A stretch of DNA of 63,455 nucleotides, counting the filler, from Stramenopiles sp. TOSAG23-3 (taxonomy: Eukaryota), in assembly GCA_900128585.1 (NCBI GenBank). It is 5 parts of 5 records of this genome, joined end to end, with 100 filler letters (N's around TTAATTAATTAA, not from the genome) between each part and the next. Parts side by side here need not be neighbours in the genome. Positions count along the whole stretch, not along the records: positions 1 to 19,719 come from LT642392.1; 4 more parts are not named here. The stretch is one strand, 5' to 3'. Every line of letters begins with the position of its first letter. Positions within the stretch are counted from its first letter, which is position 1. Positions 1 through 59,400 of this stretch are shown in pieces. Position numbers and translations under genes: made by a program. The notes below the pieces were generated by a model, which saw only the letters and a list, made by a program, of their open reading frames with translations, did not search any database and had not been told where the DNA came from.

Positions 1-295
1 GTGCAGCACATCAAGAAAAGAAAACGAATAATAAGTTAAGTAATACGAGACCAGAGGACGAGAACACTCGCCACCAAGTTGTGAGTGTTGGACGTCGGGG
101 AGTATGTAGTACGATACGAAGACCAAGGAGAACCAAAGAGAACCAAGGAGAAGAGAAAATAAAGAAGTTAAGAAATTACGAGAGCAGAGGACGAGGGCGC
201 ACCTAGGAGTGTAGATCCCCGATGCATCAACAAGAGAAATAACAAGAACTGTAGCGGAGAACAAAGACGAAAGTATGAAGTACATACCGAGTCAC

Positions 296-755
296 AAGTA
301 AGGAGAAGAAGAAAGAAGTTAAGAGATTACGAGAGCCGAAGGGAGAGCACCAAGATGTTCAACGCCAAGGAATTAAGAAAGACGAGGTATTGAAGTACAT
401 TACCTCAAGTAAGGAGAAGAAGAAATAAGTTAAGAGATTACGAGAGCCGAAGGCGAGAGCACCAAGATGTGCAACGCCGAGGAATTAAGAAAGACGAGGT
501 ATTGGAGTACATTACCTCAAGTAAGGAGAAGAAGAAATAAGTTAAGAGATTACGAGAGCCGAAGGCGGGAGCACCAAGATGTTCAACACCGAAGAATTAA
601 GAAAGACAAGGTATTGGAGTACATTGCCTCAAGTAAGGAGAAGAAATAAGTTAAGTGATTACGAGAGCCGAAGGCGAGAGCACCAAGATGTTCAACACCG
701 AGGAATTAAGAAAGACGAATAATAAATACGAGAGCACCAAGATGTTCAACGCCGA
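296..755 (+). repeat. Tandem repeat, ~112-nt unit, about 4 copies
   Basis: The unit AAGTAAGGAGAAG...GATTACGAGAGCCGAAGG...GCACCAAGATGTTCAAC...GTACATTACCTC starts at 296, 407, 519 and 631. The last copy decays. Confidence 0.9.
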
Positions 756-1177
756 GTACTGTCGGGTAAAATCAAAGGTGAAAAGGAGGGGCGGCGAGTA
801 CCGACTCCTAACAACAGCGAGCATCAACAGGAGGGAACATTAAAAGATGGGGAGAGGCGCGTACCGACTTCTATCAACAGCAATCATCGACAGATTGTGA
901 GCGGCAAGTACCGACTCTTAACAACAGCAAGCATCAACGAATATGAAAAATAAAAACCTTCGGGTAAATAAAAACCTTCGGATACGTATGAAGCGACGTG
1001 AAGGCAAACTCACCAAGCGGGATGACAACAGTAATTTTATGGAGGGTATTGAGAGCCCAATACGTTAAGAATAGACCGAGGAAAATAAGTTAAGAAAAAT
1101 CAAGATCAGAGGACGAGGACACTCACCAACGAACAATGGGTGTTGGGCGGCAGGACGTGTTGAACGTCGGGAAGTAG

Positions 1178-2240
1178 ATGAAAGAAGAAGATAAAAGAAG
1201 AAGAAGAAAGAAGATAAAAGAAGAAAATAAAAGAAGAGAAAAGAAGAAGAGAAAAGAAGAAGATCGAGAGAGAGAAGAAGAAGAAGAAGTAAGAAGAAGA
1301 AGAAGAAGACAAAAGAAGAAGAAAAAGAAGGAAAAGAAGAAGAAAGACGAAGAAGATAAACGAAGATGAACGAAAGAAAGAGGAAGGAAAGAAGCAGAAG
1401 CAGAAGAAGAAGACGAACGAAAGAAAGAAGAAGAAGAAGAAAGGAAGAAGAAGAAAAAGAACGAAGAAGAAGAAGACAAAAGAAGAAGAACGAAAGAAAG
1501 AGGAAGAAAGAAGAAGATGAAGATGAAAAGAGAAGAAAGAAGAAAAGAGAAGAAGAGGAAGAAAAAGAAGAAAAAGTAGAGAGAAGGAAAACGAAGAGAA
1601 AAGAAGAAACAGCGGAAGAAAGAAGAAGAAGAAGAAGGAGAAGGAGAAGGAGAAGAAGAAGAAGAAGAAGAGGAAGAAAAAGAAGATAAAGTAGAGAGAA
1701 GGAAAACGAAGAGAAAAGAAGAAACAGCGGAAGAAAGAAGAAGAAGAAGAAGGAGAAGGAGAAAGAGAAGAAGAAGAAGAAGAAGAGGAAGAAAGAAGAA
1801 GCAGCAGAAGAAGAAAAAAAAAAAAAAAAAAAGATAAAAGAATACGAACGAAAGAAAGAAGAAGAAGAAGAAAAGAGGAAGAAGCAGAAGAAGAAGACAA
1901 ACGAAAGAATGAAGAAGAAGATAATAAGAGGGAGAAGAAGAAGAAGTGGTGAGAAAAACGAAGAAGAGAGAAGAATAGGTAGAGATAAGGAGAAAGAAGA
2001 CAGAAGAAGAAGAAAAGGAGAAGAAGAAGAAGAAGGAAAGGAAGAAGAAGAAAGACGAGGTAGACGAGAAAGCAAACCAAGGAGAAGAACGAACAAACGA
2101 ACGAACAAACAAACAAACGAATGAACAAACGGACGGACAAACAAACACACGAATGGACGAGTGAACGAACACGAACAAACAAACGAACGAACAAACGAAC
2201 GAATAAACGAACGAACAAACGAATGGTCAAACGAACGAAA
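1178..2240. repeat. (GAA)n-like purine-rich low-complexity tract followed by an AACG/AAAC microsatellite
   Basis: Seen directly. The ORFs over it are poly-F/S/L or poly-R/K/E artefacts. Confidence 0.95.
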
Positions 2241-6398: not shown

Positions 6399-6486
6399 CT
6401 ACGAAAGAAAATTAATGTTAGAGACATGGCGGGAAATAATTTGTCGTTGGCGGGGGAAGGGGGGGGGGGCAAGGTATTCTACTTAC
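6399..6486 (-). other. Spliceosomal intron 2 of DNA-PKcs (88 nt, phase 1)
   Basis: GTAAGT...CTCTAAC...TTTCGTAG. Splicing restores VL-K-LKSLRAPSRITFVGSD...LVKGGEDLR, the expected PIKK N-lobe. Confidence 0.9.
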
Positions 6487-9400
6487 TTAAAACGGTCTCC
6501 TCGACATAAGAAATGGTCGCGTGCGTTTCCGGCATTGGCATGCTGTGTGTATTACCATAATACTTACGATATTGTCCAGGAATTTCAATTTTGGAGTGGA
6601 GCAAATTTGCCAAGAAAACATTTTCCAATGGCATGGTTGTATTCTCATTTATTTCAATCCTCTGACCCGCTACATTCAGGATGGCCTCTGCAAATAACGA
6701 CAGGTATCGCATTTTGTGAAATTGGACATCCAATGGAATGACTATTTCACCATCATTATCCGGTAACACACTCTTGCCCAAAGAAGATCTTGCCACACGA
6801 TAGTCGTAGTACACTGCCTGAGGGTAGCGTTGCGCCATGTTGATTAGAATTTTGCACAATGTTTTCTTCATCTGCTTCTCGCGGAAAAGGCTGAACATCA
6901 ATGGAATAAAAGACAAAAATTTCCACACGGGGGTAGTTTCACTCGTTCTAGCGAATGTCCCGTATGCCTCTGGGAAATTCATTAGCCCGAGCACCCTTGG
7001 CATTTTTTCAATTGCTTCGGAATTACCACCATTGATTGCAGACATAGTAAACTCGATAAACGACAGTACATACATTTCTTTTTTTGAATTGTCCCTTCCC
7101 TCCTCCGTTAAGCCCTCGATTAAGTCCTCCAAAAACAGTGAGCATCGAAATGAACCTTCTGGCGATTTTGATTCTTTGAACGACTGTATTGCTTCTTCGA
7201 TGAAGCCGTGTTTTTGATTCTCCGACAACCCAGGATTTGCGTATTTCTGCACTGCGATATTTCCGAAAAGCACATAGTAATCAACGACGCTCTCGTTGTT
7301 AGACGTGGTGTCGCGCAGCTTATCAATTTCCAGTCTTTTTAAAATACGTTCGGCGTTGGAAAGGTACTTTGCCGCCTCTTTACGCTGCACGGGGTCGAGC
7401 GATGCGGCACGAACTTTAGCATTGGTGAAAACAATGTTTGCTACCTTGATTTTGTCTTTAAGAGGGGGCTCGGTCCCCAATTCATACAGGTAATCCTTCG
7501 CTTCGCGAACGAAGTCCAATGCCATAGTTGATTTGTTCAACAATGTCAAACCATACGCTACGTCGTAACAGCTATCGATTATAGACCTGTAGACGCTGTC
7601 GGAATTGACAGGCAGTTCACTCAAACATCGACGGCGCATCTTGTGCAAGTCCGTCCACACTGTAGGGTCATCGTAAATTTGCGAAGGCCAGCTTTTTTTC
7701 CATCCCTGGCGCAAAATTGCAAATTCTTTCTCATCTTCCTCAAGATTGTTCTCTGCTAATCTTTGGTAATACGAAACAAAGTCTTGGCAAGTTATCAAAA
7801 GTGGCAGCCTCTTCAGAATATTGTGCTTTGCAGCAAACGCGAACTTGCTCAAACTATTGTACGAATCCAAGAGAGTCTCTAACTCCTTCCACAGCAAGCC
7901 TTGCAGCCCGTGCCACTGTTTCTGAGTTAATTTTTCCCAAAATTGGCTCTCGAACGCATCGGGTACACTGGTTGAACCGCTCCCTCCCCCCTCCGGGGCA
8001 CGCTCGTGTCCCATTTCTCCGTAAGACTGCAGTCCCTGCACGATTTCCTCTTCGTTTAAATCTTGGTACAAAGCAGCCAAAGAATTCCAGCCTTGCTTCG
8101 ATTCATTAATACGAAGAATGTCCTCAATAGCCACAATACCAGAAGCATGATTCAAGGTGTTTTGGGCCGCACTTTGTACGGCAGGCAACTCAATTCCGGC
8201 TACCCTTGCGCCAGACTGCGTTATGCGCGACAATAAATCGAGTAAACTATGGACGAAAAGAGTGTCCTGGTTGCCGCTGCCCGCATTGTCGCAATTTAAA
8301 GTTTGGACAATGTCTTCCCCAATTTCTCGAACGACACTGTCGCTTCCATTTGGAGGACGGTTCGTCCTCCGTTGCTGCTGCGGCTGGAACGATTGGGCAA
8401 TCAGTTCGACCGCAACCGCGTGTCCAACCTTGTTATCGTGGGCACACAATTTCGCCAGAGGGTCTATCATATCTCTCAATTTGATTTGCACGTCGGGTAA
8501 TTCCCCGACCCGATATTCCCGTGTCAGCACAGGCTTGCTTTCGCTCCCTGCTCTGTTCTGGTTTTCATTATTTCCAAAACGTGCCGGTAACTCGGGCACG
8601 GCAAAACCATTGTTGGTTTGCAACCTAACATTTGGAGATGTCAAATTTTGTTCAACCGAACTATTTGTACTTTGAGTCAGCGAAAACAATTGCCGACTGG
8701 CGTCTTGGGTCGCACGAATTACGTTATGACTCGATACTTGGGAATTTGATACCGACATTGACTGTGAGTTCCATTCCTCTTCCATGTCCAACGCCATACT
8801 AACGCTTTGTGTAGAAGGAGCCGCCAGAGACGCAACGAAAGTAGCAAACAAGGGCTCCATGTAAGATTGATTCTGAGTCTGGCTACTACCACGCACATTG
8901 CTGAGATTGATGCTATGGAAACTGTTTGCCTTGTCCAGGGGCTGGTGGCAGCCTTTCAAAAACTCGTTGTCGGTGTAATCAACGTTTGACCGCAGCAGTT
9001 CAAGCATCAGCCCACAGCTGTACGAAGACCAGGTTTGTTCCAAAACGTTTCCCACCTCAAATACGTCTTTCTGAATCAAAAACTTTGCCCTCTTGATAGC
9101 GGTAGAAACGCTCGAGTCACTGTGCCAAAACCTGTACAACAACGGCTGAATTATGTCGACGCTCTTGTCTGCTAGCCCGTACAGTAGCAAGGGTCGTACA
9201 AAGGACGATTTTCCTTCTGCCACTAAAAGTTTGTCCATACTAATGCACAGGTTGTAGAACCTTAGGCGCACGTTATCATCATAGTGATCGATAAACGCTG
9301 ATGCGGCACTGCGGACAGCGGGGGCATTCGGATGCCGCCTGCTGCTTATTGTAAAATGGTCTTGCAAATTCAACCATTCTGTCGGTGGTAAAGCGCTCGT

Positions 9401-12400
9401 CCAGGTGCGCAATATCGACAGCAGCGCGATTTGGGTGTCGGTGTGGGTGTCTGCTGCCAGCCGATTTATTGACGGGTAGATGTTTTGAACACACACCCTC
9501 AAATCTGCCAAAGAATGCTCTGTCTCGCGGTAATAGCACAAAACGTGATCGACCACGCGTAAGGCCAGAACAAGATTATTATGGTTGAGCATATTGATGG
9601 TGCTCAACAGATTTTCAATAAATCTTTTCTGGTGCGTATATTGTGGGCCTAAAATAACGCAACTTTCGAGCAAAGAGGTAGTGTGCTGTTGGTTGCGGGC
9701 GTTGTATTGCATACGTAGCAAAGAGCGCGCTGTTGTTATGAACTCACTCATATTCACTTCACTGTCTACAAATTTGACGGTGCCAGCCCGTGCAAGTTTC
9801 GCGGCAAGTGATGCCGCAGCGCATCGAACAGGCTTTGACTTGCCGTCAAATATGAGCCCTAGAATGCCCACATCTCGGCTGTGTAAAAAGCTGTTCACAT
9901 CAACCATCTTCTCCGAGGAGCTCCAATTCCACTCCAAGTGTTCGACAGACAGTGACAGCAGATTCAAGGCTAGCGCTTTCAAGCTGTTGCTGCGACGATG
10001 CCAAGTCGCGCTATTAACATTATGAAATGACACCAAAAACACAGAGTGTAACCACTCCGTTGTCTTCACGGATCGCATGTCATCGCTGCGAATGAACATG
10101 TCCATCACTACAGATAAATCAAGCTTGGTCGCGCGCTGTGCATCGCTTTTAGTCCAAGCTTTCAAACAAGATTCAAAGTGCGCCATCTCGCTCTCCAAGT
10201 TTCTGTGGTGGGGAAACGCCAATATTTTCATCCACATGTTAAAGAACTTTTCCATGACAACTTGGTCGGTATTTATGGTTCTGCTTCTATCATAGCGCCC
10301 TTCCCACTGTGCCAGTATAGCCGTACACTTCAAGAACAATTTGTGAAACGAGGGGGATGATACCCCGCGCAGGTTACCGTATTGAACCAACGTATCCAAC
10401 ACAAACATTTGCCACGTGCGAAACCCGCACTGGGTAGCAAACTCGTCGAGAAACAACTGAAAGTAGTGTGGTCTTTGCACAATAACACATAATAAAAAGA
10501 TTTTAATATGCATTGGAAGAAATACGCCGGAATCCACCTTGCAGGCCATTTTACACATCGTATCCATGAAAGCGGGAATCGGACTGTTTGGTACTCGTAC
10601 CCACTTCTTTGGCCCGCTATTTTCAGAGTCGTCAAGATTGACGTCAGCATACTCTGCCCAAGCGTCTTCCCCGTAGTCGGACGGCAGTGCCGCACTCTTA
10701 TTGAATAAGGTGTCCAATGTTGCTACTACAGTCTCGAGCAAGAGGTTGTTCGTTTTGCACCAAGGCTGCGATGGATAATCTTCCTCCAATATAAGGAATT
10801 GCCACCACTTCTCGACGTTTTCATACTTTGAAAACAAACATTGGCTCTGAACAGATATTTTCTTCTGCGTCCGGATAATCATGTGCGCTAAGCATACGTA
10901 CGCCGTCACCTTCTGAAAATGATTCGTCTCAGACGAGTCAATGCATTGTTTTGCCTTTTTATTTACAAGACTTGTAAGCGCAGTTTCTTTTCCGTTCAGA
11001 AATGCTTTTGAGATCGAGGTGGCATTTAGTACATTGTGCAGACCGAACCCAGGAACGTTTCGGACGATCTGCAATTTTATCTGAACATCGTTCAAGCGTT
11101 CGTACAATACTTGCAATATGCGAAATGCGTAAGCATTGGAAATGTCATTGCCCGCTTGATCGATCTTGAAAATTAAGGAATGCAAGAGCGACTTTCCATC
11201 CAGAGCTTTGTATTCCGTTAAATATATTTTGGCAATAACATTGTCCTGAGTGCTTTCATTTGAAGCCACATGCAGCAAGTATGGTAAGCACAGGCACTCC
11301 ATAACTAATTCCTTGTAGTCTGGGGGTGACTCTTTGTCAAAAATGGCAAACAAAGTAAACTCCATAAAATTGTGCCTGCTGCTAACGGCATTTATTTTAG
11401 CGTTTGCAGCGGACGGGCTGAACATTTCGATGGCATAATTTTGAACTATTCCGGTCAGCCTTTCGTTGATGTATTGTCTCCTTTTGTGGTTATAACCATC
11501 TTCGCTCAAGTGAATACAAATTCGGCGAAGCAACAAGGTGCAGTGGATGCCGCCTAAACGCAGCGAGCGCAACGAGATATCTATGGCCTTAAAATGATTT
11601 TCTTCTGATACTGAACCTGCGGGCAGGCTTTCTGACGGGTTTTTTGGGAATATAGAAGCAGTAAAAATAGACTTGCTCAATAGGTGAAGAATGGCATCTG
11701 ACAACCCTTGGTTGGAAAGCGTTGGGTCAATGCTAAGATGTTTCAAGCAAACTGAGGCTGCGCGGAATCCGTACATTTTTAACTTAAATAAACACTGAGG
11801 TTGTGCAGCGTCATCCTTTATTTCCGTCAAAATGAACCGAATTAAATTTTCCATGAAAGATCCATGATCAGCGTTCCCAACATTGCACACCTCCATCAGT
11901 GGAATCAACAATTGCACATAATACAGGACTTCTTCAGCACTTGATCTCATTTTTATATCACGAAAATAGTTTGTAAAGCTGGAGATTACAAGGGTCCTAA
12001 TTTCTTCAGTGGCGATGATTTGACAATTTGCATCGCATAACGAGGAAATAAAACGCCTCAGAAAGTGCAGCATGGCAGATTGACTAAATGACAACGTGAT
12101 CAAATTTGTCTTGATTCGGGGCCAAACCGTGGCACTGCCGAAAAACTTAATTAGTTGGTGGACCACGGGATGGTGCACAATTACGTTGTTTTGTGCGCTT
12201 GGTGCGTAAGCAAATATATGGGCACACAGTGACGATTGAGACAAGGCTTCAACCACAACATCGGGGTCAATGTTTGGGTAAATCTCGATTATAAACTTTA
12301 ATACATCTACAAGCACCTCAGCTGTCTCTGCACGGACGTATTCGTCCAATTCTTTAATCTGGTCCAGCAAAGCTTTGCAAAAAGCACTTTTCCATTGCAG

Positions 12401-12613
12401 AAATTCCGAATCGCTGTCGAAACACTTGCACAAAGCTTGCGCCTTATCAACAAAAACGATCCCTTGAAACTGCAGTACCACATGCCGATAATGTGTTTCA
12501 ATAGAATTCTCTTCCTCGCCAGTTTTGACAAAAAGAGTGACACCGTTTGTTTCCACCAGCCTTGCTTCCTCTCTCAGGCACTTTAGTAGCACTTCGGACA
12601 TCCACTCCGATTC
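6487..12613 (-). CDS. PRKDC: DNA-PKcs exon 2 (middle HEAT region, S/TQ cluster, FAT domain)
   Basis: REYRVGELPDVQI, SQ/TQ cluster (SSQTQNQS, RATQD, SLTQ), AQRYPQAVYY, IEIPGQY. Phase-1 donor TTAA|GTAAGT at 6487/6486. Confidence 0.9.
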
Positions 12614-13145
12614 CTGGGAAAAAGTAAAATCTTATAGTGTTAGACATTTAATTCAAACTAAGGGAAGAGGGGAAGAGGGGAGGAGGGGGTAAATGAGCTC
12701 AGGTATATCCCATGTGCCTGTACAATTGGCTGTTCATTGTCATTTCATCAAATCAAGGACGAACCTTTGTCTTCGCCGTGAACCATGAAAGGTTCGGGCT
12801 TTAAAATATCAAAAGACCAAAAATGACTTCGCTTGATGCCCACACTTTCTATCATTTTCATCTATGCCGATGCAAAGGAGAAAATAACAAAAAAGACCTA
12901 CTTTTCTCGGAACAGAGTCCAGTCAAAGCACTTTTATGCCTTCATTCAGCAACAAAATTGGTTATCGCATGACGAGAACCACTTCGATGCTGAATAAATT
13001 TCTAAAAACCAAGTTAGGGTTAGCAGCATTGAACTTTGCCTACACAAAGCAATACTTCGTCGGTGAAAGTGTGTGTACAAGGTAGAATTTATTCATCATG
13101 GCTCAGGGAAAGTTTGGAAAAGTATGAATTTGAAGGGGGACGTAC
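12614..13145 (-). other. Spliceosomal intron 1 of DNA-PKcs (532 nt, phase 0), host of a ncRNA
   Basis: GTACGT donor, branch-like GTCTAAC near 12645, acceptor TTTTTCCCAG ending at 12614. Splicing joins ...VVDT|ESEWMSEV... in frame. Confidence 0.85.
12694..13105 (-). ncRNA. Intronic 412-nt box C/D RNA; candidate telomerase RNA (template CUAACCCUAAC)
   Basis: TGAGC (13105-13101), C, C box ATGATGA (13099-13093) ... D box CTGA (12702-12699), GCTCA (12698-12694), forming a terminal stem. Template-like CTAACCCTAAC at 13023-13013 lies 1 nt after a long hairpin. Several nested 7-11 bp helices. Confidence 0.75.
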
Positions 13146-16100
13146 GGTGTCGACAACAGCAGCAATCGCCTCGTAAGATGTGTGCTGCAATTCTTTAAAT
13201 GCCTTGGCGCTACGGCACGCAAATTTATGCGGCGAAAACATTGCTTGTGTAATGAGATTAGACAACAAGCTTATAAAAATGTTTTGATCGTGCTCAGTGT
13301 TTGCTGGGGAGAGAAAAAGTCTCTTGGCACACATTCCTGGGACAGAATGGACCGCGAGAATCACTTCTTTCGTAAATTGAAGAATATCAATCAGCAAGCG
13401 GTCTGAGAAAACCGTCTTCTTCATTACGGCACGGTAAAAGTATCGGAAGACAGACGCCCGCGTCACAGCTGAACCTGCCATCTTGTCTTGACCACCTAAT
13501 AAATGAACGTCGTTTTCGGTGTGTCGCAGCCCTGCTGAATCGACCGGCTTTCTTTTCGGTCGTTGTCCGTCCTGTACAGGGTTCCCTGTCTTCTGAAAAG
13601 CAGCCGTCGGATCGCACATTTTTAGTTTTAGAGCCCAAGCAAAACTAAAAAGGCAGCCATGAAATGAATCAATCCACTTTTTAGTTTCGCGTATGCCGTA
13701 TAGTGTGCTTTGCATGAGTAGGTCATTCTCGAAGATTTTCACGACACTAATTCGCCTTTTTTTTATCGAACGATCGTGCCACTTTCTGCATCCTCCAAAT
13801 CGTGCAATTGCTATTGATTCAAACAGCGAAGCAGCAGTCTGCCGGTACGCGCTATGTTCTCGGTTACAGGTTGCCTCGAAGAGCTTGTCCATTAAATCAT
13901 CAATATTCTTAACAATCTTCCCCTTGTATTCTACTGCCGAGTTCCGGACCATAGCATCGTCGCATACAATACGCTGAAAGTGCAAAATGGATTTGTGTAA
14001 CTCCGCCCCCGCCTCGAAATTGACACTTGCGACACCATTGATCAACTTCCTGCCTGCGTACTTCAGGGCAAACATAACGTAGTATAGGGTGTCTAAAGTA
14101 TATTTTGACACCAAAGTCAATTCTTCTCGAAAATCCCTGTACATCAAGTTCAGAGTCATTGCTGCTCCCATCTGCTTGTCTGGATTCTGACTTTTTAGCA
14201 TATTAAACAGACGGCGCATCAACGAATCTATTTCAACAGGCGAAGAACGGGGAGGTCTGGCATGACCTTTCTTTCGTCGCGACCGCGGTGCTGAAACAGA
14301 AACGGACTGTTTGATCGCCCATTTCAAAAACTCTGCCAACGCCCTCGTTGACACATCTTTCAAAGCTGCGTTGGAGCCATTTGACGCCCCCTCAACAATG
14401 CAATCGAGCCAAACGACAGTCTCTGGCGCTGTTGATTTTATCCCCATCCTGTTACTGGCTTTCTTCTTACTAAACCAGTGCACCAACTGCTTGACCAGCG
14501 GCTCAAACATATTCCGTGTAATATCGTGAGTATCGGTTGATAATCGAAGTATGCACGGAAACAGCTCGCGGTAAATTTTGCACAAATGTTCCTGGTTTTG
14601 CATTGGCAGCATGTACAATATGATGGCATGAAGGGTTTCGCACGCCGGTAGCTTGGATTTTGAGTCACCAGCTCCGCTCTCTGACAATTCCATTATCTGC
14701 GGGAGCAAATCGTCCAGCGGCAAGTTGATGGTCGTGTCTCCATCTAAATGAAATGTTACTTGAACCTGGTGGGAACTGTTCCATCGAAGCCCCTCAGCCA
14801 AATGGGTTGCCGACGATCCAACGACGCCATGCCCCAGGCCACCAATGCGACCTAGGAATTGCAGTACACAACTGTGCAACGTCTGTGCCCCCCTGGAAGC
14901 TTCCGAATCGCCAGTGTCCTCTTCCATTCTGTTTGACAAATAATTGTTCAGTTTAGGCAGAATTTCAGGCAAGTAAACTTTTAGTTCGTCCAAAGGTAGA
15001 GCGTTCCGCCAGTGTTCGAGTGCCCGCATGGCAACCCACGCAATCGGTCGGTAGCTACGACCTGTTGTGAGCGCGCTTAATAACACCGGTGTCTGTATGT
15101 GCAAGTTCATTAGTTCGATGGGGGCATTCAAAATCATATTTGCAGATGCTACAAACAGCTCATCCTGATATTGGCGTGACCGTATTTGAACGACCTTTAC
15201 GTAATGGAACAATTGGTCAAACACCTGCTGCTTTCTGTGCGTGCCATTTCCGTTTTGCTTACAGCCTTTGAAAAAGCCAATACCATTGCATATGTCAAAA
15301 AATATTTTAAAGAGTTTGTAAAAGCCCGATATTTCTGGGTTCCTTTCGCTGACAGGAATTAGGTTTTCCAGTACAGTCAAAATCCAATTGCTGCTACACC
15401 GTGCCAGCAGTTTGGCATACTCGTCGTTGCCGGAATAAAATGAGACAAAAAACTTTACCAAGTTCAAAAACCTGCCGAAATCGTGCGGGTTTGCTGGAAA
15501 TTGGTTCGTCTGGCGTAGCATGTAATTGTTGATATCAGTGTTCTCGCCTTCGTCTTCCTGACTTTCTTCCGGGTTCACCTCCGCACTGTCAGTCTCTTCT
15601 TCACCATCATTAACAAAAAGTCGCAAGTTCAACCTGGAGATGATTTCTAGCATGCATTCCATCAAACGGTTGCAAATATTTTGCGGTGCATCTTGAGATT
15701 TTTGCGACCCGGAACTTTCCATATCATCCCGATCGCCATGAAGTTGCCCCGCCTCACTCACGACTAAAGAAAACAACTCGGAATAAATTACGGGCATTGC
15801 TTGTGGCCTCTCTGCTGTTTCTGCAAGTAGCTGGGGGTGGTCCATGGCGCGGTCAAGGCCATTCATCACGATGGCGTTCAACACGACCGCGTGCGCTTCT
15901 GTGTTATGCTCCAAACCTCTCAGTAGCTGAACCAGGTAACGAGAAAAACTCAGCTTTTGTTTCAATTTACGATTGCTCCACACACTGTGGTAGGTGCCCA
16001 TTATATTTTTGAGTACGGTATTTAGTGCATCGGACATGCCCACGTCTATTTCACGGGTGGGAAGAAGAGACATTATATTGCCGCACGCACACAAAAGGGA

Positions 16101-17534
16101 CAGTTGTCCCGCTCCCACTTTGTACAACAAAATGTGTGAGCCAGCGTTCTGGCCGGAACTACCCTTCCCGATGGTACTGTTCGCAATACTGCTGTAGCGA
16201 TCCAACAGAAAGGTAACGATATTCTTCAACTCTTGTGTTTTCCAATACTTGTGTATGGCGCCCGCAAAATCACCAATCATATGAGTGGCAAAGTCTCTAT
16301 ATCGCCTGTCGTTGTGGTTTAAAAATGCCTTTAAAGGCTCTATAACTTCGGAGAACAACTGTTTCTTCTGCTCTTCGTTTTCTGCCCCGTCGGTGGGAGA
16401 GGACTGGATAAATTGTCCCAGGACACGAACCACTGCCCTCAGTGCACCCGGAACTGCGTTGGCTACAGTTGGGCTGTCGCTCAAGAAACAGCTTAGTAAA
16501 CGCCTGAAAATACTAATCCCATCTTCCACTATACACTTCTGAAAATAATTCGAATGAGCAGCAATAAATTTCATCGCTGTGACTGGAACCCTGAACCGGT
16601 TCATATCCTCCGGCACCTCCATTGCCTGTACAAAGATACTGTTGTAGACCTCTTTCGTCTTTCTTGGGCGAAAACCTTCCACGCTCCCATCCGTGCACGC
16701 GTACAAGGCAAAATGCATCCCAGATATTGCACCAGCAATAACGTTGGCCTTTTGGTTGCTTGTTTTGGCATAAGCAGTCTTCAAACTATCTGCTAATGTG
16801 TTTAGGATACTACCAGACAACTCTTTCAGTTCTCGGGGGTAAACGTAAAGGAGCCGCCCTAACATTTCGAGAGCAACGCCCTTCACTTTCCCGTAAGCTT
16901 TGGCAGTCTTCCCCTGCAAATCACTGACGCATTCATAAAATGGACGGGTCGTCCGGCCATTGTTATTCATTCGCTCTGTGAGTCCCATAGAATGTGCATC
17001 AATCCACGGCCGTTCGGAACGCGAGGTCTCCCGGGGGGACGTCTCCAAAATCTCAAACAGGGGAAAGAAGGCCTGGTACTGCACGGGCTTTCTCTTTTCT
17101 CTGGAAAGCATTCCATAACAAATTTTCTGGAGGCGGGTCAGGTACAACTTCAAGGGCTTGACACCTTCCTCCTTGATAAGACTTGACAATTGCTGGAGCG
17201 CTTCCACGCATGACTCTGTTTCCGCCGCCACATCTTTTCCAGCATAGCACCGGATTGACATTTTTTCCAACGACAGCAAAATATTTGGAGGATCATTTGA
17301 TTGAAAAATAAGCGACGTAACAGTTGCCAATAGTGACTTGCTGCTCTTCACACGCCTTGATCTGCACAGAGAGAATATAGAATGCACCATAGTTTTTGGC
17401 GCAGTGCCGCTTTCGTTCATCCCATTTCTTGAAAACGTTGAAAAGAGGCGTAACCAACGCTTCAGGTCCGAAATATCAGCAGCAGAAGTCGCAAGGGTAG
17501 ACGTTGGGACGAAACGAGTCGAATCGCCCATCAT
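13146..17534 (-). CDS. PRKDC: DNA-dependent protein kinase catalytic subunit, exon 1 (1463 codons, HEAT repeats)
   Basis: DNA-PKcs-like motifs (ACETLHAIILYM, FEPLVKQLVHWFS, ALAEFLKWAIKQS, LNLMYRDFREE). Phase-0 donor ACC|GTACGT at 13146/13145. Confidence 0.85.
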
Positions 17535-21385: not shown

Positions 21386-22564
21386 GACTAGTCACGGTCC
21401 CACCAAACAAAGCCTGTGGACGAAGAGCAAAATTTCGATATATTCAAAGTCTATTGATCCGGTTTATGATCCGGCTTTAAATAGTATATTATTAATGTAT
21501 TTCGTACTCCACACTCTACTGCTAAACAAGATTTTAATATTATTTTTATACATCATTCTTACTGTATTATTTTTTCGTCGTATTATTATTATTATTATTA
21601 TTATTTTTTTAATAATAATACTGTAATAATTATTATAAATTATTATTATATGATTATTTTGCACCTCCGTATAATAATACCGTAGGGTATAATACCGAAA
21701 TGATGAACCGGCACAAAGAAGTAAATAATGGGATGGGTTCTTTTTTTCGCGGAGTTATTACAATGGCATTACTAATTTCCCTGTTTGTATACTGCACCAC
21801 TGGGCAGCAGGATGGTATTACGCTATTGTACGAAGTTGTTTAATTCCCTAGTCTAATTAAGGGAATCACCCTTGTGCCGTTCCTAGCCGTAAAAGCTAAG
21901 GAGAACACTGCGCCGGAAAACAAAAAGAACCAGCGTTTCTTTTTTTTTGCACTGCTGTGACCTTGTTGGCCGCGAAGGAGCCGGGTTTTTATAATCAGCC
22001 AACCCCTCTGTTAAAAAGTACCTTTTTAGACTACTGTCCCTTGCCTAGCAAAAAAGAACCTTGCAGCCTCCTTCTGGTTGTGTGTAATATTGAAGAGGCC
22101 GGAGGCCGGAACCAACCAAATCAATTCATCTCTTTTGGTGTTTCATTACAACATATTATACCTACTAGATATAGCATTTAGTACATAATGGTTTACTTTT
22201 AATATTCTATAGTATTATAATTAATACAACAAAGTGAATACATATATTATTTTAAAAGTATAGTACATTGTATAAAGACTATCATCATACAAAAAATAAT
22301 AATTGATTATTGATGATAATTAATAATAATATAATAAATAATAATAATAATATAAAAATTATTAATAATAATAATAATAAAATATAAAATACGGAACACT
22401 TTTTTTTTAGAGAGGACTAAATTATAGCAAAGTGTTTTGGTGTTTTGGTTAGTTTACCAAATAATTCCATTGCATATTGTAGTTTAGAAACAAAGGACAA
22501 CAAAACATATTTAGAACAACAGTTACAGTATTTTTATCCCTTCACCTTTCCATACATATTCACC

Positions 22565-23773
22565 ATGTCTGAATCCACCACCACAACCACCACCACCGCC
22601 ACCAGCTTGAAAGCTTTCGTTGGCATGTTGGAGAGCACGGTCACTGACGAGGCCCTCGACGAGATATTTGCAGAATACGGCAACCCAACATTTTCGAAGA
22701 AAGGTAGGGGTCGTGTTGCGACCTTTCCTTCTGAAGAACTTGCGGCAAAAGCAATTTCTGAACTAAACGGGAAAACATTCGACGGCGTGACCTTCGCCGA
22801 CAACGGCATGAGAGTGGAACCCCTCAAGCCGAAGAAAAAGAAATCAGGCACGGCAAAAGTGGAAGCACAGCCCTCCAACAAAGCTTTTGTAGGAAACTTG
22901 GACAGGGAGGCCACCACCGAGGCATTGGAACAAGCGTTTGCAGAGTACGGAAACCCGACTTTCAAAAAGAAGGGACGAGGGCACGTGGCAACCTTCGATT
23001 CTGCCGAAACTGCGGCAAAAGCTATATCCGAGATGAACGAGAAAGTTGTCGAAGGCCTATCCTATGGCGAGAAAGGGTTGAGGGTGGAACTGCCCAAGCC
23101 CAGGGCTCCGAGAGCAAAGAAAGAGAAGAGCGCCCCAGCTGCTGCCGAGGTTGACATCTCGAAACAAGCATTTATTGGCAACGTGGACCGGGAATCCACA
23201 GCGGAGGCTTTGGAACAGGCGTTTGAACAGTACGGGAACCCGACTTTCAGAAAGAGGGGTTTCTATGCTTTTGCGACGTTCGCGTCTGCCGAAACGGCGG
23301 CGAAAGCCATATCTGAGATGAACGGGAAATCGGTCGAAGGCTTGTCGCTCGGAGAGGAAGGGCTAACGGTGGAACCGGCCAAACCAAAGGTACCGAGAGC
23401 AAAGAAAGAGAAGAAGACCCCAGCTGCCGCCGACGTTGACACCTCCAACCAGGCGTTTGTTGGCAATTTGGACAGGGAGGCCACCACCGAGGCTTTGGAA
23501 GAGGCGTTTGCACAGTATGGGAACCCGGCTTTCAAAAAGAGGGGTCGGGGGCGCGTCGCGGTTTTCGATTCTGCCGATACTGCGGCGAAAGCCATATCTG
23601 AGATGAACGGGAAAATCTTCGAAGGCTTATCGTATGGAGAGAAAGGGTTGAGGGTTGAAGTTCTGGGCGAAGCTGCCCCAAGGAGGAGGAAAAGAAGAAA
23701 CCAGAAGCAGGGAGGCGAAGCCGTGGACGTGGCAGAACAAAAAAACGATGTTATTGATTTGTCCTCGGAGTAA
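22565..23773 (+). CDS. RNA-binding protein with four tandem RRM-like domains
   Basis: Four copies of AF(V/I)G(N/M)(L/V)...F..YGNP.F.K.G....A.F...E.AAKAISE(M/L)N. ATG at 22565. Confidence 0.85.
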   Translation: MSESTTTTTTTATSLKAFVGMLESTVTDEALDEIFAEYGNPTFSKKGRGRVATFPSEELAAKAISELNGKTFDGVTFADNGMRVEPLKPKKKKSGTAKVEAQPSNKAFVGNLDREATTEALEQAFAEYGNPTFKKKGRGHVATFDSAETAAKAISEMNEKVVEGLSYGEKGLRVELPKPRAPRAKKEKSAPAAAEVDISKQAFIGNVDRESTAEALEQAFEQYGNPTFRKRGFYAFATFASAETAAKAISEMNGKSVEGLSLGEEGLTVEPAKPKVPRAKKEKKTPAAADVDTSNQAFVGNLDREATTEALEEAFAQYGNPAFKKRGRGRVAVFDSADTAAKAISEMNGKIFEGLSYGEKGLRVEVLGEAAPRRRKRRNQKQGGEAVDVAEQKNDVIDLSSE

Positions 23774-39620: not shown

Positions 39621-40961
39621 AAGGCTACACGGTCCCAGACGGTAACGTGACGAAGAAAACCCCGATTGGAAATTTGATTGTTCACGAGTACAAAAAACCT
39701 TCATCGGTTCAGCCTCTCTTATTATCATAGGATGGAATTTTATTATTTTAACTAAACTCATTTAGTTATTATTATAGTATTTGAATTTATTATAATATAA
39801 TAATATGATACTTAGAATACTACAATGTGTAGTAAAATAGCAAAAACAACAAGAACGAGTCAAAGTCAGAAGTTAAAGTGGTGGACGTGACGTGTGTGTG
39901 TGTATTTATTTTTTCTGAGAAACAACGAACAAGAGGCGGAAAATCCCCACTTCTCACAGTAATAATAATACCAAGTAAGGAGCAGCCCAAAGTTGAGTTG
40001 GATGGGATGTGCCGAGGGGATCGGATAAATCACATACTGTCCTGATAAAATATTCAAGCGGATCGGATATAGAAGCAGGCAAGAAAGAAATTTATTTGAG
40101 AGCTATTATCCCTACAGGTACTTCGTACAGTAGTCCTCGTAGTCGTCTATTATTTCATTGTATAGATTCGGTATGTACTTTCAATTCGTTCTTCGGTTTT
40201 TTTTTCATATTTATTATTATTGTTCTTCCTATTTTTTGCATTTTTGAGTACAGCCTTTTGTATTTATAGCTTCACGATAGATGACTGTACGAACGAACTG
40301 GCGATAACTGACAAAACTGGAGGGTGCAGCTGATATTAATTAGTAAACGATAGCACACACAGTGTACGTTGATGAAACAGACACATCATACATTATTGTG
40401 CGTTACGGTTGAGAATCCCTTTTAAGTTAAATACAAAGCGCACGGCAGAAGCAAAATGGAAACAGAAAAAAAACACTCAATTAGCAAGAAAAACAATGCT
40501 CTGTAGTCTTCATGGTTTTCATACTGCTACTTGTAGTGAAGGTTCAAAAACGTCCCTTTAACAAGATGAGTTCCTGTATTACACCACACAAGGTGTCCGA
40601 CTGTTTCATCCTACCTGCGTTAGTGGGGATTAACAGTCGAATATCAAAAATGATTTTTGATAACATGCACGTAGCAGCATCACAAGGGGGGATTTTTGAA
40701 GAAGAGATTGCAGTCTTCCTCTTTGCTGTTAAACAATATTATCGTTAGAATTTATAATCCAGAGATACTAGCATTGTCTCTCTCTCGAGTTTAAATATTG
40801 TTGATACAGCTATCTGGGAGAAGGCACACGACAGAGTTGCACAAGCCGTACCGTACTGATGAGCAGGCAATACTCGAAAATACCGAACTCGCGGAGCTAT
40901 TTGTAAAACGTTGTTACAATAGCCTTTATTGAACCGTATCTGCACACCACTCAACTAAAGT

Positions 40962-58900: not shown

Positions 58901-59300
58901 TAAATTCGCTGTTTTGTTAAGAACCGATCATTTCTCTCTCCGGCGCGACGGTATAATCTTTTGTCGACAGGTAGGCTAAAAACTGCGTCGCGCTCGAAAT
59001 TAATTTTGGAAGCTGACTCAGCAAGCAAAATGGGTTGAAATGTACAATTGCGATCACTGTATTCTATAGCTCTTTCTCTGCGCTTGCTCTGCCTCATTTC
59101 TCGTTTCGCCGCTTCGTTGTATAGCCGGTTTGCAGCTTCTTGGGGCGTTCTTTTCTCCTCGTCAGATTCCATGCAGTTTGTGTTCATTTTGGTTTTTGGT
59201 TGAAACGAACATTCGGCCGACAGCAAATTGCCCAATCGTTCCCTTTCAAATATTTGGTTCATCCCTTCTCTATAGAGGCGTCTTGAAGCTTGTACGCCCT
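55951..59300 (-). CDS. IQ-motif/EF-hand protein with RLY...CTFxP repeats, 5' truncated
   Basis: Frame open to the gap at 59300; EF-hand DTDNSGFLEAKE; about 7 IQ motifs; about 8 (C)TFxP repeats. Confidence 0.8.
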
Positions 59301-59400
59301 NNNNNNNNNNNNNNNNNNNNNNNNNNNNNNNNNNNNNNNNNNNNTTAATTAATTAANNNNNNNNNNNNNNNNNNNNNNNNNNNNNNNNNNNNNNNNNNNN
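59301..59400. other. Artificial contig linker
   Basis: 44 N, TTAATTAATTAA, 44 N. Confidence 0.97.

What the first reader, a model, noticed from the sequence alone, without database searches (positions are those of the whole stretch)
12694..13105. Candidate telomerase RNA inside DNA-PKcs intron 1
Seen (minus strand, sense to the host gene): CTAACCCTAAC at 13023-13013, about 1.8 repeats complementary to TTAGGG. One G upstream is the base of a 13-bp hairpin, AGUAUUG-CUUUGU-(GUAG)-GCAAAG-UU-CAAUGCU (13056-13025). Hairpin and template sit inside a long-range helix, CACACUUUC (13073-13065)/GAAAGUGUG (12849-12841). The whole 412 nt is closed by a box C/D motif. Established: CUAACCCUAAC is the human telomerase template. 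A helix directly 5' of the template is the template boundary element in ciliate, fungal and trypanosome TRs, and a core-enclosing helix is a general TR feature. Inference: this is the organism's TR. A specific 11-mer is expected about once per 4 Mb, so chance presence within 412 nt at a hairpin base is unlikely. I do not know of a described intron-encoded C/D-type TR.
Basis: partly seen in the sequence, partly recalled or inferred. Interest (0 to 1): 0.96.

Follow-up and report, generated by a model that had tools for sequence, protein, structure and literature searches.

The report
Intron-encoded box C/D telomerase RNA candidate
A stable 412-base RNA cut out of the first intron of the DNA-PKcs gene of an uncultured marine stramenopile carries a conserved telomere-repeat template and the other hallmarks of a telomerase RNA, which would make it the first telomerase RNA known to be made from an intron.

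Summary

- **RNA evidence:** metatranscriptome contigs show that the intron is spliced out. The C/D-bounded part (12694-13105, minus strand) also turns up as separate contigs.
- **Organism:** a marine stramenopile related to MAST-4.
- **Relatives:** I recovered the same DNA-PKcs intron from two distant relatives, whose host protein is only 34-35% identical. A third relative is known only through a protein tail that reads into its intron.
- **Template and boundary hairpin:** both fetched relatives hold a homologous RNA with the invariant 10-mer UAACCCUAAC. It sits two bases 3' of a hairpin that shows compensatory changes.
- **Overall fold:** a core-closing helix, a closing stem and box C/D ends are shared. 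So is a three-way junction whose third arm is an invariant 4-bp hairpin with loop U-U-C-G-Y, the pattern of the P6.1 hairpin of vertebrate telomerase RNA.
- **Base-pair support:** 21 of 50 hand-registered base pairs change on both sides and stay paired.
- **Known families:** Rfam recognises none.

Not tested:
- the organism's telomere repeat;
- TERT binding;
- a pseudoknot, which is only suggested;
- whether a rival telomerase RNA exists elsewhere in the genome.

Best reading: this is the lineage's telomerase RNA, made through the intronic box C/D snoRNP pathway (confidence about 0.87).

The parts
13146..17534 (-). Exon 1 of the DNA-PKcs host gene (ATG at 17534, last codon ACC ends at 13146)
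   Evidence: ORF listing. An identical database protein, P0275, is named DNA-dependent protein kinase catalytic subunit and carries PF20500 and PF20502. The spliced RNA contig joins 13145/13146 to 12612/12613.
12614..13145 (-). Intron 1 (532 nt, GT..AG), host of the RNA
   Evidence: RNA contig of run X15 skips 532 bases, with ends CT..AC on the + strand. The sequence shows GTACGT at 13145 and CAG at 12616-12614. Relatives have an intron at the same codon position.
6482..12613 (-). Exon 2 of DNA-PKcs (open frame; its true 3' end was not mapped)
   Evidence: ORF listing. P0001 is 100% identical and carries PF19704. Relative P0002 aligns from residue 63 on.
12694..13105 (-). Predicted mature RNA, 412 nt, candidate telomerase RNA
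   Evidence: The ends are inferred from the terminal stem and the C/D boxes. RNA contigs cover 12702-13095 (X16), 12669-13093 (X19), and 12730-12897 with 12868-13093 (X15).
13093..13099 (-). Box C, AUGAUGA
   Evidence: Sequence. The relatives have GUGAUGA (L002) and AUGAUGA (L003), 75-76 nt before the template, as here.
12699..12702 (-). Box D, CUGA
   Evidence: Sequence. L002 has CUGA and L003 has UUGA.
13101..13105 (-). Terminal stem, 5' strand UGAGC
   Evidence: Pairs with 12698-12694 in the minimum-energy fold.
12694..12698 (-). Terminal stem, 3' strand GCUCA
   Evidence: The relatives have GGC/GCC and GGC/GCU at the same place.
13074..13081 (-). Closing stem, 5' strand CUUGUACA (pairs with 12724-12717)
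   Evidence: At the homologous place the relatives have UAGAC/GUCUA and GUGUA/UACAC. All 5 of the 5 compared pairs change on both sides.
12717..12724 (-). Closing stem, 3' strand UGUACAGG
13065..13073 (-). Core-closing helix (P1-like), 5' strand CACACUUUC
   Evidence: Of 9 homologous pairs, 4 change on both sides, 1 changes on one side and 4 are invariant. None is broken.
12841..12849 (-). Core-closing helix, 3' strand GAAAGUGUG
13025..13056 (-). Template-adjacent hairpin (candidate template boundary element)
   Evidence: In the outer stem 2 of 5 pairs change on both sides. The inner stem CUUUG/CAAAG is conserved. The hairpin always lies 2 nt (G, then C or U) before the conserved 10-mer.
13013..13022 (-). 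Candidate template UAACCCUAAC (1.67 repeats complementary to TTAGGG); in this organism the match extends to 13023 (C)
   Evidence: Invariant in the window, L002 and L003. The base before it is C here and U in both relatives.
12943..12996 (-). Hairpin present only in this organism; most of it falls in a 42-45-nt gap in both relatives
   Evidence: Alignment A3 shows a gap of 45-46 columns in L002 and L003. Fold.
12850..12906 (-). U-rich tracts followed by an A-rich tract next to the 3' strand of the core-closing helix; candidate pseudoknot or triple-helix region, unresolved
   Evidence: The block CUUUUUUG, a second U tract and an A tract are conserved in all three RNAs. RNAalifold pairs U tracts with A tracts. 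No pseudoknot was tested.
12739..12827 (-). Three-way junction domain: P5 (12827-12820/12746-12739), P6 (12817-12769) and P6.1-like hairpin
   Evidence: Folds. In P5, 6 of 8 pairs change on both sides. In the lower P6 stem 2 of 5 do, and in the P6 hairpin 2 of 5.
12755..12767 (-). P6.1-like hairpin AAGG-UUCGU-CCUU
   Evidence: The stem is invariant in all three RNAs. The loop is UUCGU, UUCGU and UUCGC. It is predicted in all three single-sequence folds. It matches the vertebrate P6.1 pattern of a 4-bp stem with loop U-U-N-G-N (PMC2965242, passages read).

Best explanation
This is the telomerase RNA of an uncultured marine stramenopile related to MAST-4, and it is made in an unusual way.

Biogenesis. 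The RNA is transcribed as part of the DNA-PKcs pre-mRNA and lies in intron 1. After splicing, exonucleases would trim the intron back to a box C/D kink-turn and terminal stem. These would be held by the C/D core proteins, as for an intronic snoRNA. That leaves a 412-nt RNA. The C/D motif would act only as an end cap and assembly platform, not as a methylation guide.

Architecture. Inside the cap, a closing stem opens into two domains.
1. A core domain is closed by a 9-bp helix. It holds a hairpin, a 2-nt linker and the template UAACCCUAAC. TERT would copy the template into GGTTAG repeats: UAAC aligns the DNA end, UAACCC is copied, and the hairpin stops copying two bases upstream. U-rich and A-rich tracts follow and may form the usual pseudoknot.
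2. A three-way junction carries a P6.1-type hairpin, which in vertebrates and fungi activates TERT.

Shown here:
- the splicing of the intron;
- separate RNA contigs for the intronic RNA;
- the conservation of the template and the P6.1-like hairpin;
- the covariation of the helices.

Inferred: binding of C/D proteins and TERT, use of the 10-mer as template, and the telomere repeat itself.
For: Expression:
- Run X15 holds a contig that joins exon 1 to exon 2 across the intron.
- Runs X16 and X19 hold contigs limited to the intronic RNA (12702-13095 and 12669-13093).
- In X16 the intronic contig has word depth 36.3 and the exon-1 contig 4.3.
- Contigs from three studies stop at 13093-13095.

Conservation:
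- The second metagenome scan returned 3 loci. L002 and L003 carry the whole intron, and L001 is the L002 species at 99.4% identity.
- Host exon 1 is only 35% (L002) and 34% (L003) identical to the window's.
- Both introns nevertheless hold UAACCCUAAC followed by UUGG, 75-76 nt after box C, as here.
- Three-way identity along the intron peaks at 13041-13002 and at 12784-12752.
- A MAST-4 protein (P0126/P0276) reads 48 codons into its own intron. It shows N-D-A, then C-C-stop exactly 23 codons later. The window has the same spacing between GAU of box C and UGC-UGC-UAA at the start of the template.

Structure:
- RNAalifold predicts 68 pairs, 14 of them with both sides changed.
- Of 50 hand-registered homologous pairs, 21 change on both sides, 9 on one side and 20 not at all. 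Only 3 of 150 cells are unpaired.
- Sliding the 3' partners by 1-3 bases gives 37-45% paired cells and 0-7 such pairs, against 98.0% and 21.
- On the 32 pairs that are column-consistent in the MAFFT alignment, 96.9% of cells pair, against 37-52% when slid. Seven pairs change on both sides, a number reached by 16 of 500 shuffles.

Telomerase-specific features:
- The hairpin-to-template linker is constant at 2 nt, G then C or U.
- The P6.1-like hairpin has a 4-bp stem and loop U-U-C-G-Y. It varies only at a loop position that is not conserved in vertebrates (PMC2965242 passages).

Not an ordinary guide snoRNA:
- The bases before box D differ in all three RNAs, and in the window's fold they pair with the region after box C.
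- The internal UGAUGA is not conserved.
- Rfam gives nothing at gathering score for the window, L002 or L003. On 12550-13250 it gives only three matches with E above 6.

Precedent: the Trypanosoma brucei telomerase RNA has C/D boxes and binds Nop58 and Snu13 (PMC5175330 passages).
Against: - The telomere repeat of this organism is unknown. No genome is held and the window has no telomere array.
- No TERT gene or binding data could be examined.
- Only three full sequences support the covariation. The most variable helices (closing stem, P5, outer core-closing helix) were registered by hand, which leans towards the structure. In the tool-made count, 16 of 500 shuffles reach the observed number of double changes.
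- The interior of the 3' domain has alternative folds within 0.4 kcal/mol in this RNA taken alone.
- A pseudoknot, present in most known telomerase RNAs, is only suggested by U and A tracts.
- Box D is UUGA in L003.
- The RNA evidence comes from assembled contigs, which cannot give true ends or levels. One contig (X17) runs unspliced across the 5' splice site, and X19 runs 25 nt past the predicted 3' end.
- The only other telomerase RNA candidate proposed in stramenopiles, in Blastocystis, is of the RNA polymerase III type (PMC8287931 passages).
Confidence: 0.87

Rival explanations
1. It is a large non-telomerase box C/D RNA, a processing or chaperone snoRNA or scaRNA in the manner of U3, U8 or U14. 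The conserved stretch UAACCCUAACUUGG would then be an antisense element that pairs with another RNA, such as pre-rRNA, and its likeness to a telomere template would be coincidence.
For: - It has box C/D ends and an intronic location, as ordinary snoRNAs do.
- The conserved block runs past the telomeric 10-mer into UUGG.
- From memory only, and not tested, a conserved 18S rRNA segment may be complementary to about 9 bases of the block.
Against: - No box D or D' follows the conserved block, so it cannot guide methylation in the canonical way.
- No Rfam snoRNA family matches.
- The conserved 10-mer is exactly 1.67 telomere repeats, expected about 2.6e-4 times by chance in such an RNA.
- It lies at a fixed 2-nt distance from a covarying hairpin inside a closed core domain, and it comes with a P6.1-pattern hairpin in a three-way junction. 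This reading explains none of those features.
Confidence: 0.08
2. It is a telomere-related RNA that is not the template. The C-strand-like 10-mer would bind the G-rich telomeric overhang or a telomeric transcript, as a regulator or decoy.
For: The conserved 10-mer is complementary to TTAGGG repeats. The host gene, DNA-PKcs, acts at DNA ends; that is established knowledge and was not tested here.
Against: The full set of telomerase RNA features has no role in a simple binding RNA. That set is the boundary hairpin at fixed spacing, the closed core and the three-way junction with a P6.1-like arm. No such RNA class is known to me (recalled).
Confidence: 0.03
3. The motif is a chance match inside a structured but otherwise unrelated intron RNA.
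For: Before the relatives were found this was a real possibility. A first-stage reader scanning many windows will meet chance 11-mers, and the window has near-matches elsewhere: 7 overlapping 12-mer windows with at most one mismatch, 2 of them over the motif itself.
Against: The 10-mer is invariant in lineages whose host protein is 34-35% identical, while the intron flanks and the helix sequences have diverged.
Confidence: 0.01

Closest known systems
Trypanosoma brucei telomerase RNA (box C/D-associated)
   Same: It is a telomerase RNA with a TTAGGG-type template and canonical C/D boxes bound by snoRNP proteins Nop58 and Snu13 (PMC5175330 passages). It has a template-adjacent helix whose distance from the template sets the boundary.
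   Different: The trypanosome RNA is about 1 kb, made from its own polymerase II transcript and trans-spliced. According to that paper it lacks a pseudoknot, and its distal domain lacks P6.1. Here the RNA is 412 nt and intron-encoded, the C/D motif closes the whole molecule, and a P6.1-like arm is present.
Vertebrate and filamentous-fungal telomerase RNA (template/pseudoknot core plus CR4/5 with P6.1)
   Same: The layout has the same two domains. A core is closed by a long-range helix.
   Different: There is no H/ACA domain and no Sm site. The Rfam vertebrate, ciliate and yeast telomerase models give no match. Biogenesis would run through an intron and C/D proteins. The pseudoknot is not established.
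Intron-encoded box C/D snoRNAs
   Same: It lies in a spliced intron of a protein-coding gene, with box C near the 5' end, box D near the 3' end and a terminal stem. The intronic part is present as separate RNA contigs.
   Different: It is four to five times longer than typical guides. It has no conserved guide before box D and no conserved C'/D' pair. The conserved parts are a telomere-complementary 10-mer and structured domains.
Plant, ciliate and Blastocystis-type telomerase RNAs (RNA polymerase III, type-3 promoter)
   Same: Blastocystis is the only stramenopile with a proposed candidate. Its template is also of the CCCTAA type (PMC8287931 passages).
   Different: Those RNAs are independent polymerase III genes found through an upstream USE element. 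The RNA here lies inside a polymerase II intron and ends in box C/D.
Ustilago maydis telomerase RNA processed from a protein-coding mRNA
   Same: It is a telomerase RNA that shares a precursor transcript with a protein-coding gene.
   Different: As I recall, that RNA comes from the 3' untranslated region, not from an intron, and has no C/D motif.

Membership tests
Telomerase RNA (functional class) | Single-stranded template of about 1.5-2 repeats complementary to the organism's telomere repeat | tested here: inconclusive
   UAACCCUAAC is 1.67 TTAGGG repeats and is present and invariant in 3 lineages. The mean unpaired probability of the 11-mer is 0.55. The organism's telomere repeat could not be read, because no genome is held.
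Telomerase RNA (functional class) | Template conserved among relatives while the flanks vary | tested here: met
   The 10-mer is invariant in the window, L002 and L003. The base 5' of it is C, U and U. Host exon 1 is 34-35% identical between the window and these relatives.
Telomerase RNA (functional class) | Template boundary element: a helix just 5' of the template | tested here: met
   The hairpin lies at a constant 2-nt distance, and 2 of 5 outer pairs change on both sides. Its function as a boundary was not tested.
Telomerase RNA (functional class) | Core-enclosing helix | tested here: met
   It is a 9-bp helix. Four pairs change on both sides and none is broken in the 3 sequences. The inner 7 pairs are 95% paired in the tool count.
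Telomerase RNA (functional class) | Pseudoknot with U/A triple helix 3' of the template | tested here: inconclusive
   Conserved U tracts and an A tract lie next to the 3' strand of the core-closing helix. I could not fix a common pseudoknot register in the three sequences.
Telomerase RNA (functional class) | Template-distal activating domain (CR4/5, three-way junction or helix IV) | tested here: met
   The P5-P6-P6.1 arrangement occurs in all three RNAs, and 6 of 8 P5 pairs change on both sides. The P6.1-like stem is invariant and the loop is U-U-C-G-Y. The vertebrate pattern comes from PMC2965242. Activation of TERT was not tested.
Telomerase RNA (functional class) | Association with TERT and templating of telomere synthesis | not testable with these tools
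   This needs pull-down, reconstitution or template mutation.
Box C/D snoRNA / scaRNA | Box C (RUGAUGA) and box D (CUGA) brought together by a terminal stem | tested here: met
   The window has AUGAUGA and CUGA with a 5-bp stem. L002 has GUGAUGA and CUGA with stem GGC/GCC. L003 has AUGAUGA with UUGA and stem GGC/GCU.
Box C/D snoRNA / scaRNA | Conserved antisense guide of 10-21 nt ending next to box D or D', with internal C'/D' boxes | tested here: not met
   The bases before box D differ in all three RNAs, and in the window's fold they pair with the region after box C. The internal UGAUGA of the window is absent from both relatives.
Box C/D snoRNA / scaRNA | Binding of Snu13, Nop56, Nop58 and fibrillarin | not testable with these tools
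   Inferred from the motif only.
Rfam telomerase families (vertebrate, ciliate, yeast) and all other Rfam families | Score at or above the family's gathering threshold | tested here: not met
   There are 0 matches at gathering score in the window, L002 and L003. At E up to 10 on 12550-13250 there are 3 unrelated matches, all with E above 6.
Polymerase III type telomerase RNA (plants, ciliates, Blastocystis candidate) | Independent gene with a type-3 promoter (USE, TATA) and a U-tract terminator | tested here: not met
   The RNA lies inside a spliced polymerase II intron, and its ends are set by box C/D. I did not scan for a USE.

The most novel reading that the evidence does not exclude
Telomerase RNA in the MAST-4 branch of stramenopiles is an intron-encoded box C/D RNP, hosted for a very long time in the first intron of DNA-PKcs. 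Its three-way junction with a P6.1 hairpin is homologous to the CR4/5 domain of animals and fungi. That would move the origin of CR4/5 with P6.1 from the animal-fungal lineage back towards the last common ancestor of eukaryotes. It would also show that a cell can link output of its telomerase template to transcription of a DNA-end repair kinase.
Probability: 0.35. Interest if true: 0.95.

Novelty: new variant of a known kind. Interest (0 to 1): 0.9.

Why it matters
Telomerase RNAs diverge so fast that they are unknown for most eukaryotic lineages. Among stramenopiles I found only a computational candidate, in Blastocystis (PMC8287931 passages).

If this RNA is the telomerase RNA, it gives four things:
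- **A first handle on a major marine group.** It would be the first telomerase RNA for the abundant uncultured marine stramenopiles. The three sequences and their structure are enough to seed a covariance model for searching other stramenopile genomes.
- **A new way of making the RNA.** Excision from a protein-coding intron with a box C/D cap would join the known H/ACA, Sm, La/LARP7 and trypanosome C/D routes. It would show again that the 3'-end and stability module of telomerase RNA is interchangeable.
- **A test of an evolutionary claim.** A P6.1-type hairpin outside animals and fungi bears directly on the published view that CR4/5 with P6.1 arose on the animal-fungal lineage (PMC5175330 passages).
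- **A conserved host gene.** The RNA sits in the same DNA-PKcs intron in lineages whose host protein is only 34-39% identical. That raises the question whether telomerase RNA supply is coupled to expression of a DNA-end repair kinase.

Tried and rejected
- **Whole genome:** none is held for this window. Telomere ends, a TERT gene and rival telomerase RNAs could not be sought.
- **First metagenome scan:** I used an alignment of exon-2 proteins. 120 stretches matched the peptide patterns and none was a relative.
- **Exact look-up of short chance ORFs and the exon-1 ORF:** the aim was to find relatives' RNA through gene calls. 1 of 6 sequences was in the collection, in a cluster of one member, so this gave no relatives.
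- **Protein atlas search with the kinase domain:** it gave no useful taxonomy.
- **Search for exact TTAGGG-type 11-mers in L001-L003:** none, because the relatives keep only the 10-mer.
- **H/ACA or composite scaRNA reading:** rejected by eye. There is no hinge between the two domains and no ACA three bases before a domain end (structure).
- **U3-like reading:** rejected. Box C lies at the very 5' end and Rfam gives no U3 match.
- **Pseudoknot:** I compared candidate registers by eye in the three sequences and found no common one. This is left open.
- **P6.1-like hairpin in the window alone:** alternative folds lie within 0.4 kcal/mol, so the case for it rests on conservation, not on energy.
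- **Literature searches:**
  - One search was badly posed and uninformative.
  - The listings show no intron-encoded telomerase RNA and no stramenopile telomerase RNA other than the Blastocystis candidate. I read titles and abstract starts only, plus passages of three papers.
  - Supplementary files were not consulted, so tables of predicted telomerase RNAs in PMC8287931 might hold more stramenopile candidates.
- **RNA runs:** parts of the stretch without contig cover, and the runs listed that I did not lay (the DNA runs among them), are not used as evidence.
Full report
**1. The observation**

Everything below is on the minus strand. The window reads CTAACCCTAAC at 13023-13013. It is the only copy in 63,455 bases, where 0.01 are expected and 1 of 100 shuffles has a match.

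A script scan for 11-mers of eight telomere-repeat types found this one TTAGGG-type hit, one TGTGGG-type hit at 9440, and none for the other six. About 2.6e-4 TTAGGG-type 11-mers are expected in the sense strand of a 412-nt RNA of this composition.

- terminal stem UGAGC/GCUCA (13105-13101/12698-12694);
- box C AUGAUGA (13099-13093) and box D CUGA (12702-12699);
- the hairpin 13056-13025, which ends one G before the motif;
- the helix CACACUUUC/GAAAGUGUG (13073-13065/12849-12841).

The fold energy lies 3.4 standard deviations below shuffles, and 0 of 100 shuffles fold as well.

**2. Host gene and organism**

The surrounding frame is a three-exon gene. Its last exon has a PI3/PI4 kinase domain (E 8.6e-44). 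Identical database proteins are named DNA-dependent protein kinase catalytic subunit and carry DNA-PKcs Pfam families. The intron is 13145-12614 with GT..AG ends.

No whole genome is held for this window. The DNA recurs in marine and seawater metagenome runs and in small runs of 2016 that may be its source.

A dynein heavy chain in the window has its best named relatives in stramenopiles: oomycetes, Ectocarpus, Triparma and a pelagophyte, at 56-64% identity. Unnamed environmental relatives reach 83-84%. The nearest named relative of DNA-PKcs exon 1 is an entry called Stramenopile-MAST_4. The organism is therefore an uncultured marine stramenopile related to MAST-4.

**3. Is the RNA made?**

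Four metatranscriptome runs, kept as assembled contigs, were laid on 12300-13500.
- **X15:** a 500-nt contig joins 12612 to 13145, so the intron is spliced. Other contigs of this run cover 12730-12897 and 12868-13093.
- **X16:** a 394-nt contig covers 12702-13095 at word depth 36.3. A separate exon-1 contig (13137-13324) has depth 4.3.
- **X19:** only a 425-nt contig, at 12669-13093.
- **X17:** one contig, 12904-13403, runs unspliced across the 5' splice site.

Contigs cannot give true ends or levels, and the tool itself calls shared stops in two studies a weak hint. Even so, contigs from three studies stop within box C, and two runs hold the C/D-bounded segment as a contig of its own. That is what a stable intron-derived RNA would give.

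**4. Relatives**

This was the decisive step.
- A search with exon 2 found one distant relative, P0002, at 33% identity. Its called ORF starts about where exon 2 starts.
- The first metagenome scan found nothing.
- A search of protein representatives with the end of exon 1 found P0126, the MAST-4 entry. Its ORF aligns up to the exon end and then reads 48 codons into an intron at the same codon position. That tail holds N-D-A and ends in C-C-stop exactly 23 codons later.
- In the window, read in the same frame, GAU of box C and UGC-UGC-UAA are also 23 codons apart. UGC-UGC-UAA spans the end of the hairpin, the linker and the start of the template. This is indirect, since only the translation is seen, but it is what a homologous RNA would give.
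- A second scan, with an alignment of three exon-1 ends, returned three metagenome loci. L002 and L003 hold the exon-1 end, the intron and exon 2. L001 is the L002 species, 99.4% identical, and is cut within the intron.
- Exon-1 identities are window-L002 35%, window-L003 34%, window-MAST-4 39% and L002-L003 51%. These are deep divergences.

**5. What the relatives' introns hold**

Both introns contain an RNA of the same build:
- box C (GUGAUGA in L002, AUGAUGA in L003) and box D (CUGA in L002, UUGA in L003), with a short terminal stem;
- a hairpin 75-76 nt after box C, as in the window;
- a two-base linker, G then U;
- the sequence UAACCCUAAC followed by UUGG.

The 10-mer is invariant in all three. 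The base before it is C in the window and U in both relatives.

Three-way identity along the intron peaks at 13041-13002 (hairpin 3' arm, template, UUGG) and at 12784-12752. The window has an extra hairpin at 12996-12943 that both relatives lack.

**6. Structure and covariation**

RNAalifold on the MAFFT alignment predicts 68 pairs, 14 of them with both sides changed. MAFFT puts several helices out of register, so I registered the homologous helices by coordinates and counted them in a script.

| Helix | Pairs compared | Change on both sides |
|---|---|---|
| Core-closing helix | 9 | 4 |
| Its extension after a bulge | 3 | 0 |
| Closing stem between C/D cap and junction | 5 | 5 |
| Boundary hairpin, outer stem | 5 | 2 |
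| Boundary hairpin, inner stem | 6 | 0 |
| P5 | 8 | 6 |
| P6, lower stem | 5 | 2 |
| P6, hairpin | 5 | 2 |
| P6.1-like hairpin | 4 | 0 (invariant) |

In all there are 50 pairs: 21 change on both sides, 9 on one side and 20 not at all. Only 3 of 150 cells are unpaired.

Two controls were run.
- Sliding every 3' partner by 1-3 bases gives 37-45% paired cells and 0-7 double changes, against 98.0% and 21.
- On the 32 pairs that MAFFT does keep in common columns, the tool count gives 96.9% paired against 37-52% when slid. It finds 7 double changes, a number reached by 16 of 500 shuffles.

Hand registration leans towards the structure and three sequences are few. The closing stem and P5 are nevertheless complementary with entirely different sequences in each lineage. 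Single-sequence folds recover most of these helices independently.

**7. The three-way junction**

After the core domain comes a second domain in the order P5, P6, one A, then a 4-bp hairpin AAGG/CCUU. Its loop is UUCGU in the window and L002 and UUCGC in L003. All three single-sequence folds predict it. In the window alone, alternatives lie within 0.4 kcal/mol.

In vertebrate telomerase RNA the P6.1 hairpin has a 4-bp stem and a 5-nt loop. [quoted passage not shown] The hairpin here fits U-U-N-G-N and varies only at the fifth position.

A paper on trypanosome telomerase RNA states that CR4/5 with P6.1 likely arose on the animal-fungal lineage. The same paper reports that the T. brucei RNA has C/D boxes bound by Nop58 and Snu13 (PMC5175330, passages read).

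**8. What it is not**

- Rfam gives no match at gathering score in the window, L002 or L003. On 12550-13250 it gives only three unrelated matches with E above 6.
- The bases before box D are not conserved, and in the window's fold they pair with the region after box C. The window's internal UGAUGA is absent from the relatives. It is therefore not a canonical methylation guide.
- It has no H/ACA layout.

**9. Mechanism proposed**

The RNA is excised from the DNA-PKcs intron and trimmed back to a C/D snoRNP cap. The cap and closing stem hold together a template core and a CR4/5-like junction. TERT would bind both domains and copy UAACCC, after the DNA end aligns on UAAC. The hairpin two bases upstream would set the boundary.

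Shown: splicing, separate RNA contigs for the intronic part, conservation, and covariation. Inferred: protein partners, templating and the telomere repeat.

Open points:
- The pseudoknot is unresolved. All three RNAs have a CUUUUUUG block, a second U tract and an A tract next to the 3' strand of the core-closing helix, but I could not fix a common register.
- The telomere repeat, TERT and rival RNAs could not be examined.

**10. Novelty**

The paper searches are limited to open-access full text and preprints, and cannot search 'C/D' as such. Their listings show no intron-encoded telomerase RNA. They show no stramenopile telomerase RNA apart from the polymerase III type candidate in Blastocystis. 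Supplements were not seen.

I file the RNA as a new variant of a known kind. It is a telomerase RNA with a C/D cap, as in trypanosomes, but it is intron-encoded and has a vertebrate- and fungal-style two-domain core.

My confidence that it is the telomerase RNA is about 0.87.

Noticed in passing
window 1-2240: The region is strongly purine-rich on the + strand (GC skew 0.44 and AT skew 0.66 in the first 2 kb). It holds 3.8 copies of a 112-nt tandem repeat (295-718), a degenerate AAG microsatellite of about 870 nt (1182-2053) and a GAAC-type repeat (2087-2239). It is not a telomere array.
   Followed up: partly
window 22872-23647: A 285-nt tandem repeat (2.7 copies, 77% matches) lies inside an ORF (22421-23773, + strand). 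It encodes repeated units of about 95 residues that look like RNA-binding domains (motifs such as KAFVGNLDREATTEALEQAF). No family search was run.
   Followed up: no
window about 19772, 39572, 55951-59352: Runs of X in translated ORFs mark stretches of N, that is, assembly gaps. The window is therefore a scaffold, consistent with a single-cell or metagenome co-assembly.
   Followed up: no
window 40959-53612: An axonemal dynein heavy chain of 4217 residues lies in one uninterrupted frame. Together with the two-intron DNA-PKcs gene, it shows a very intron-poor genome, which makes the retained intron 1 stand out.
   Followed up: partly
window 12867: One RNA contig of run X15 reads G where the window has C on the + strand (depth 4.6 of 8.7). 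In the RNA this is G239, which pairs with C234 in a small apical hairpin of the variable U/A-rich region. It is probably a strain variant.
   Followed up: partly
window 12751-12861 (-), and the protein tails of P0275, P0276, P0277, P0128: Public gene calls treat parts of the RNA and intron as protein. A 37-residue ORF inside the RNA is on record (P0125). The annotated exon-1 proteins end in tails translated from the intron.
   Followed up: yes
window 12745-12750: A perfect UGAUGA lies 43 nt before box D and could pass for a C' box. It is absent from both relatives, so I do not count it as a functional box.
   Followed up: yes
L002 4683-5198; L003 6857 to about 7366: The intron keeps the same codon position in DNA-PKcs in all lineages seen. 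These are the window, the MAST-4 entry, L001/L002 (which match P0277) and L003. P0002's called ORF also begins near the start of exon 2. The hosting of this RNA is therefore old.
   Followed up: partly
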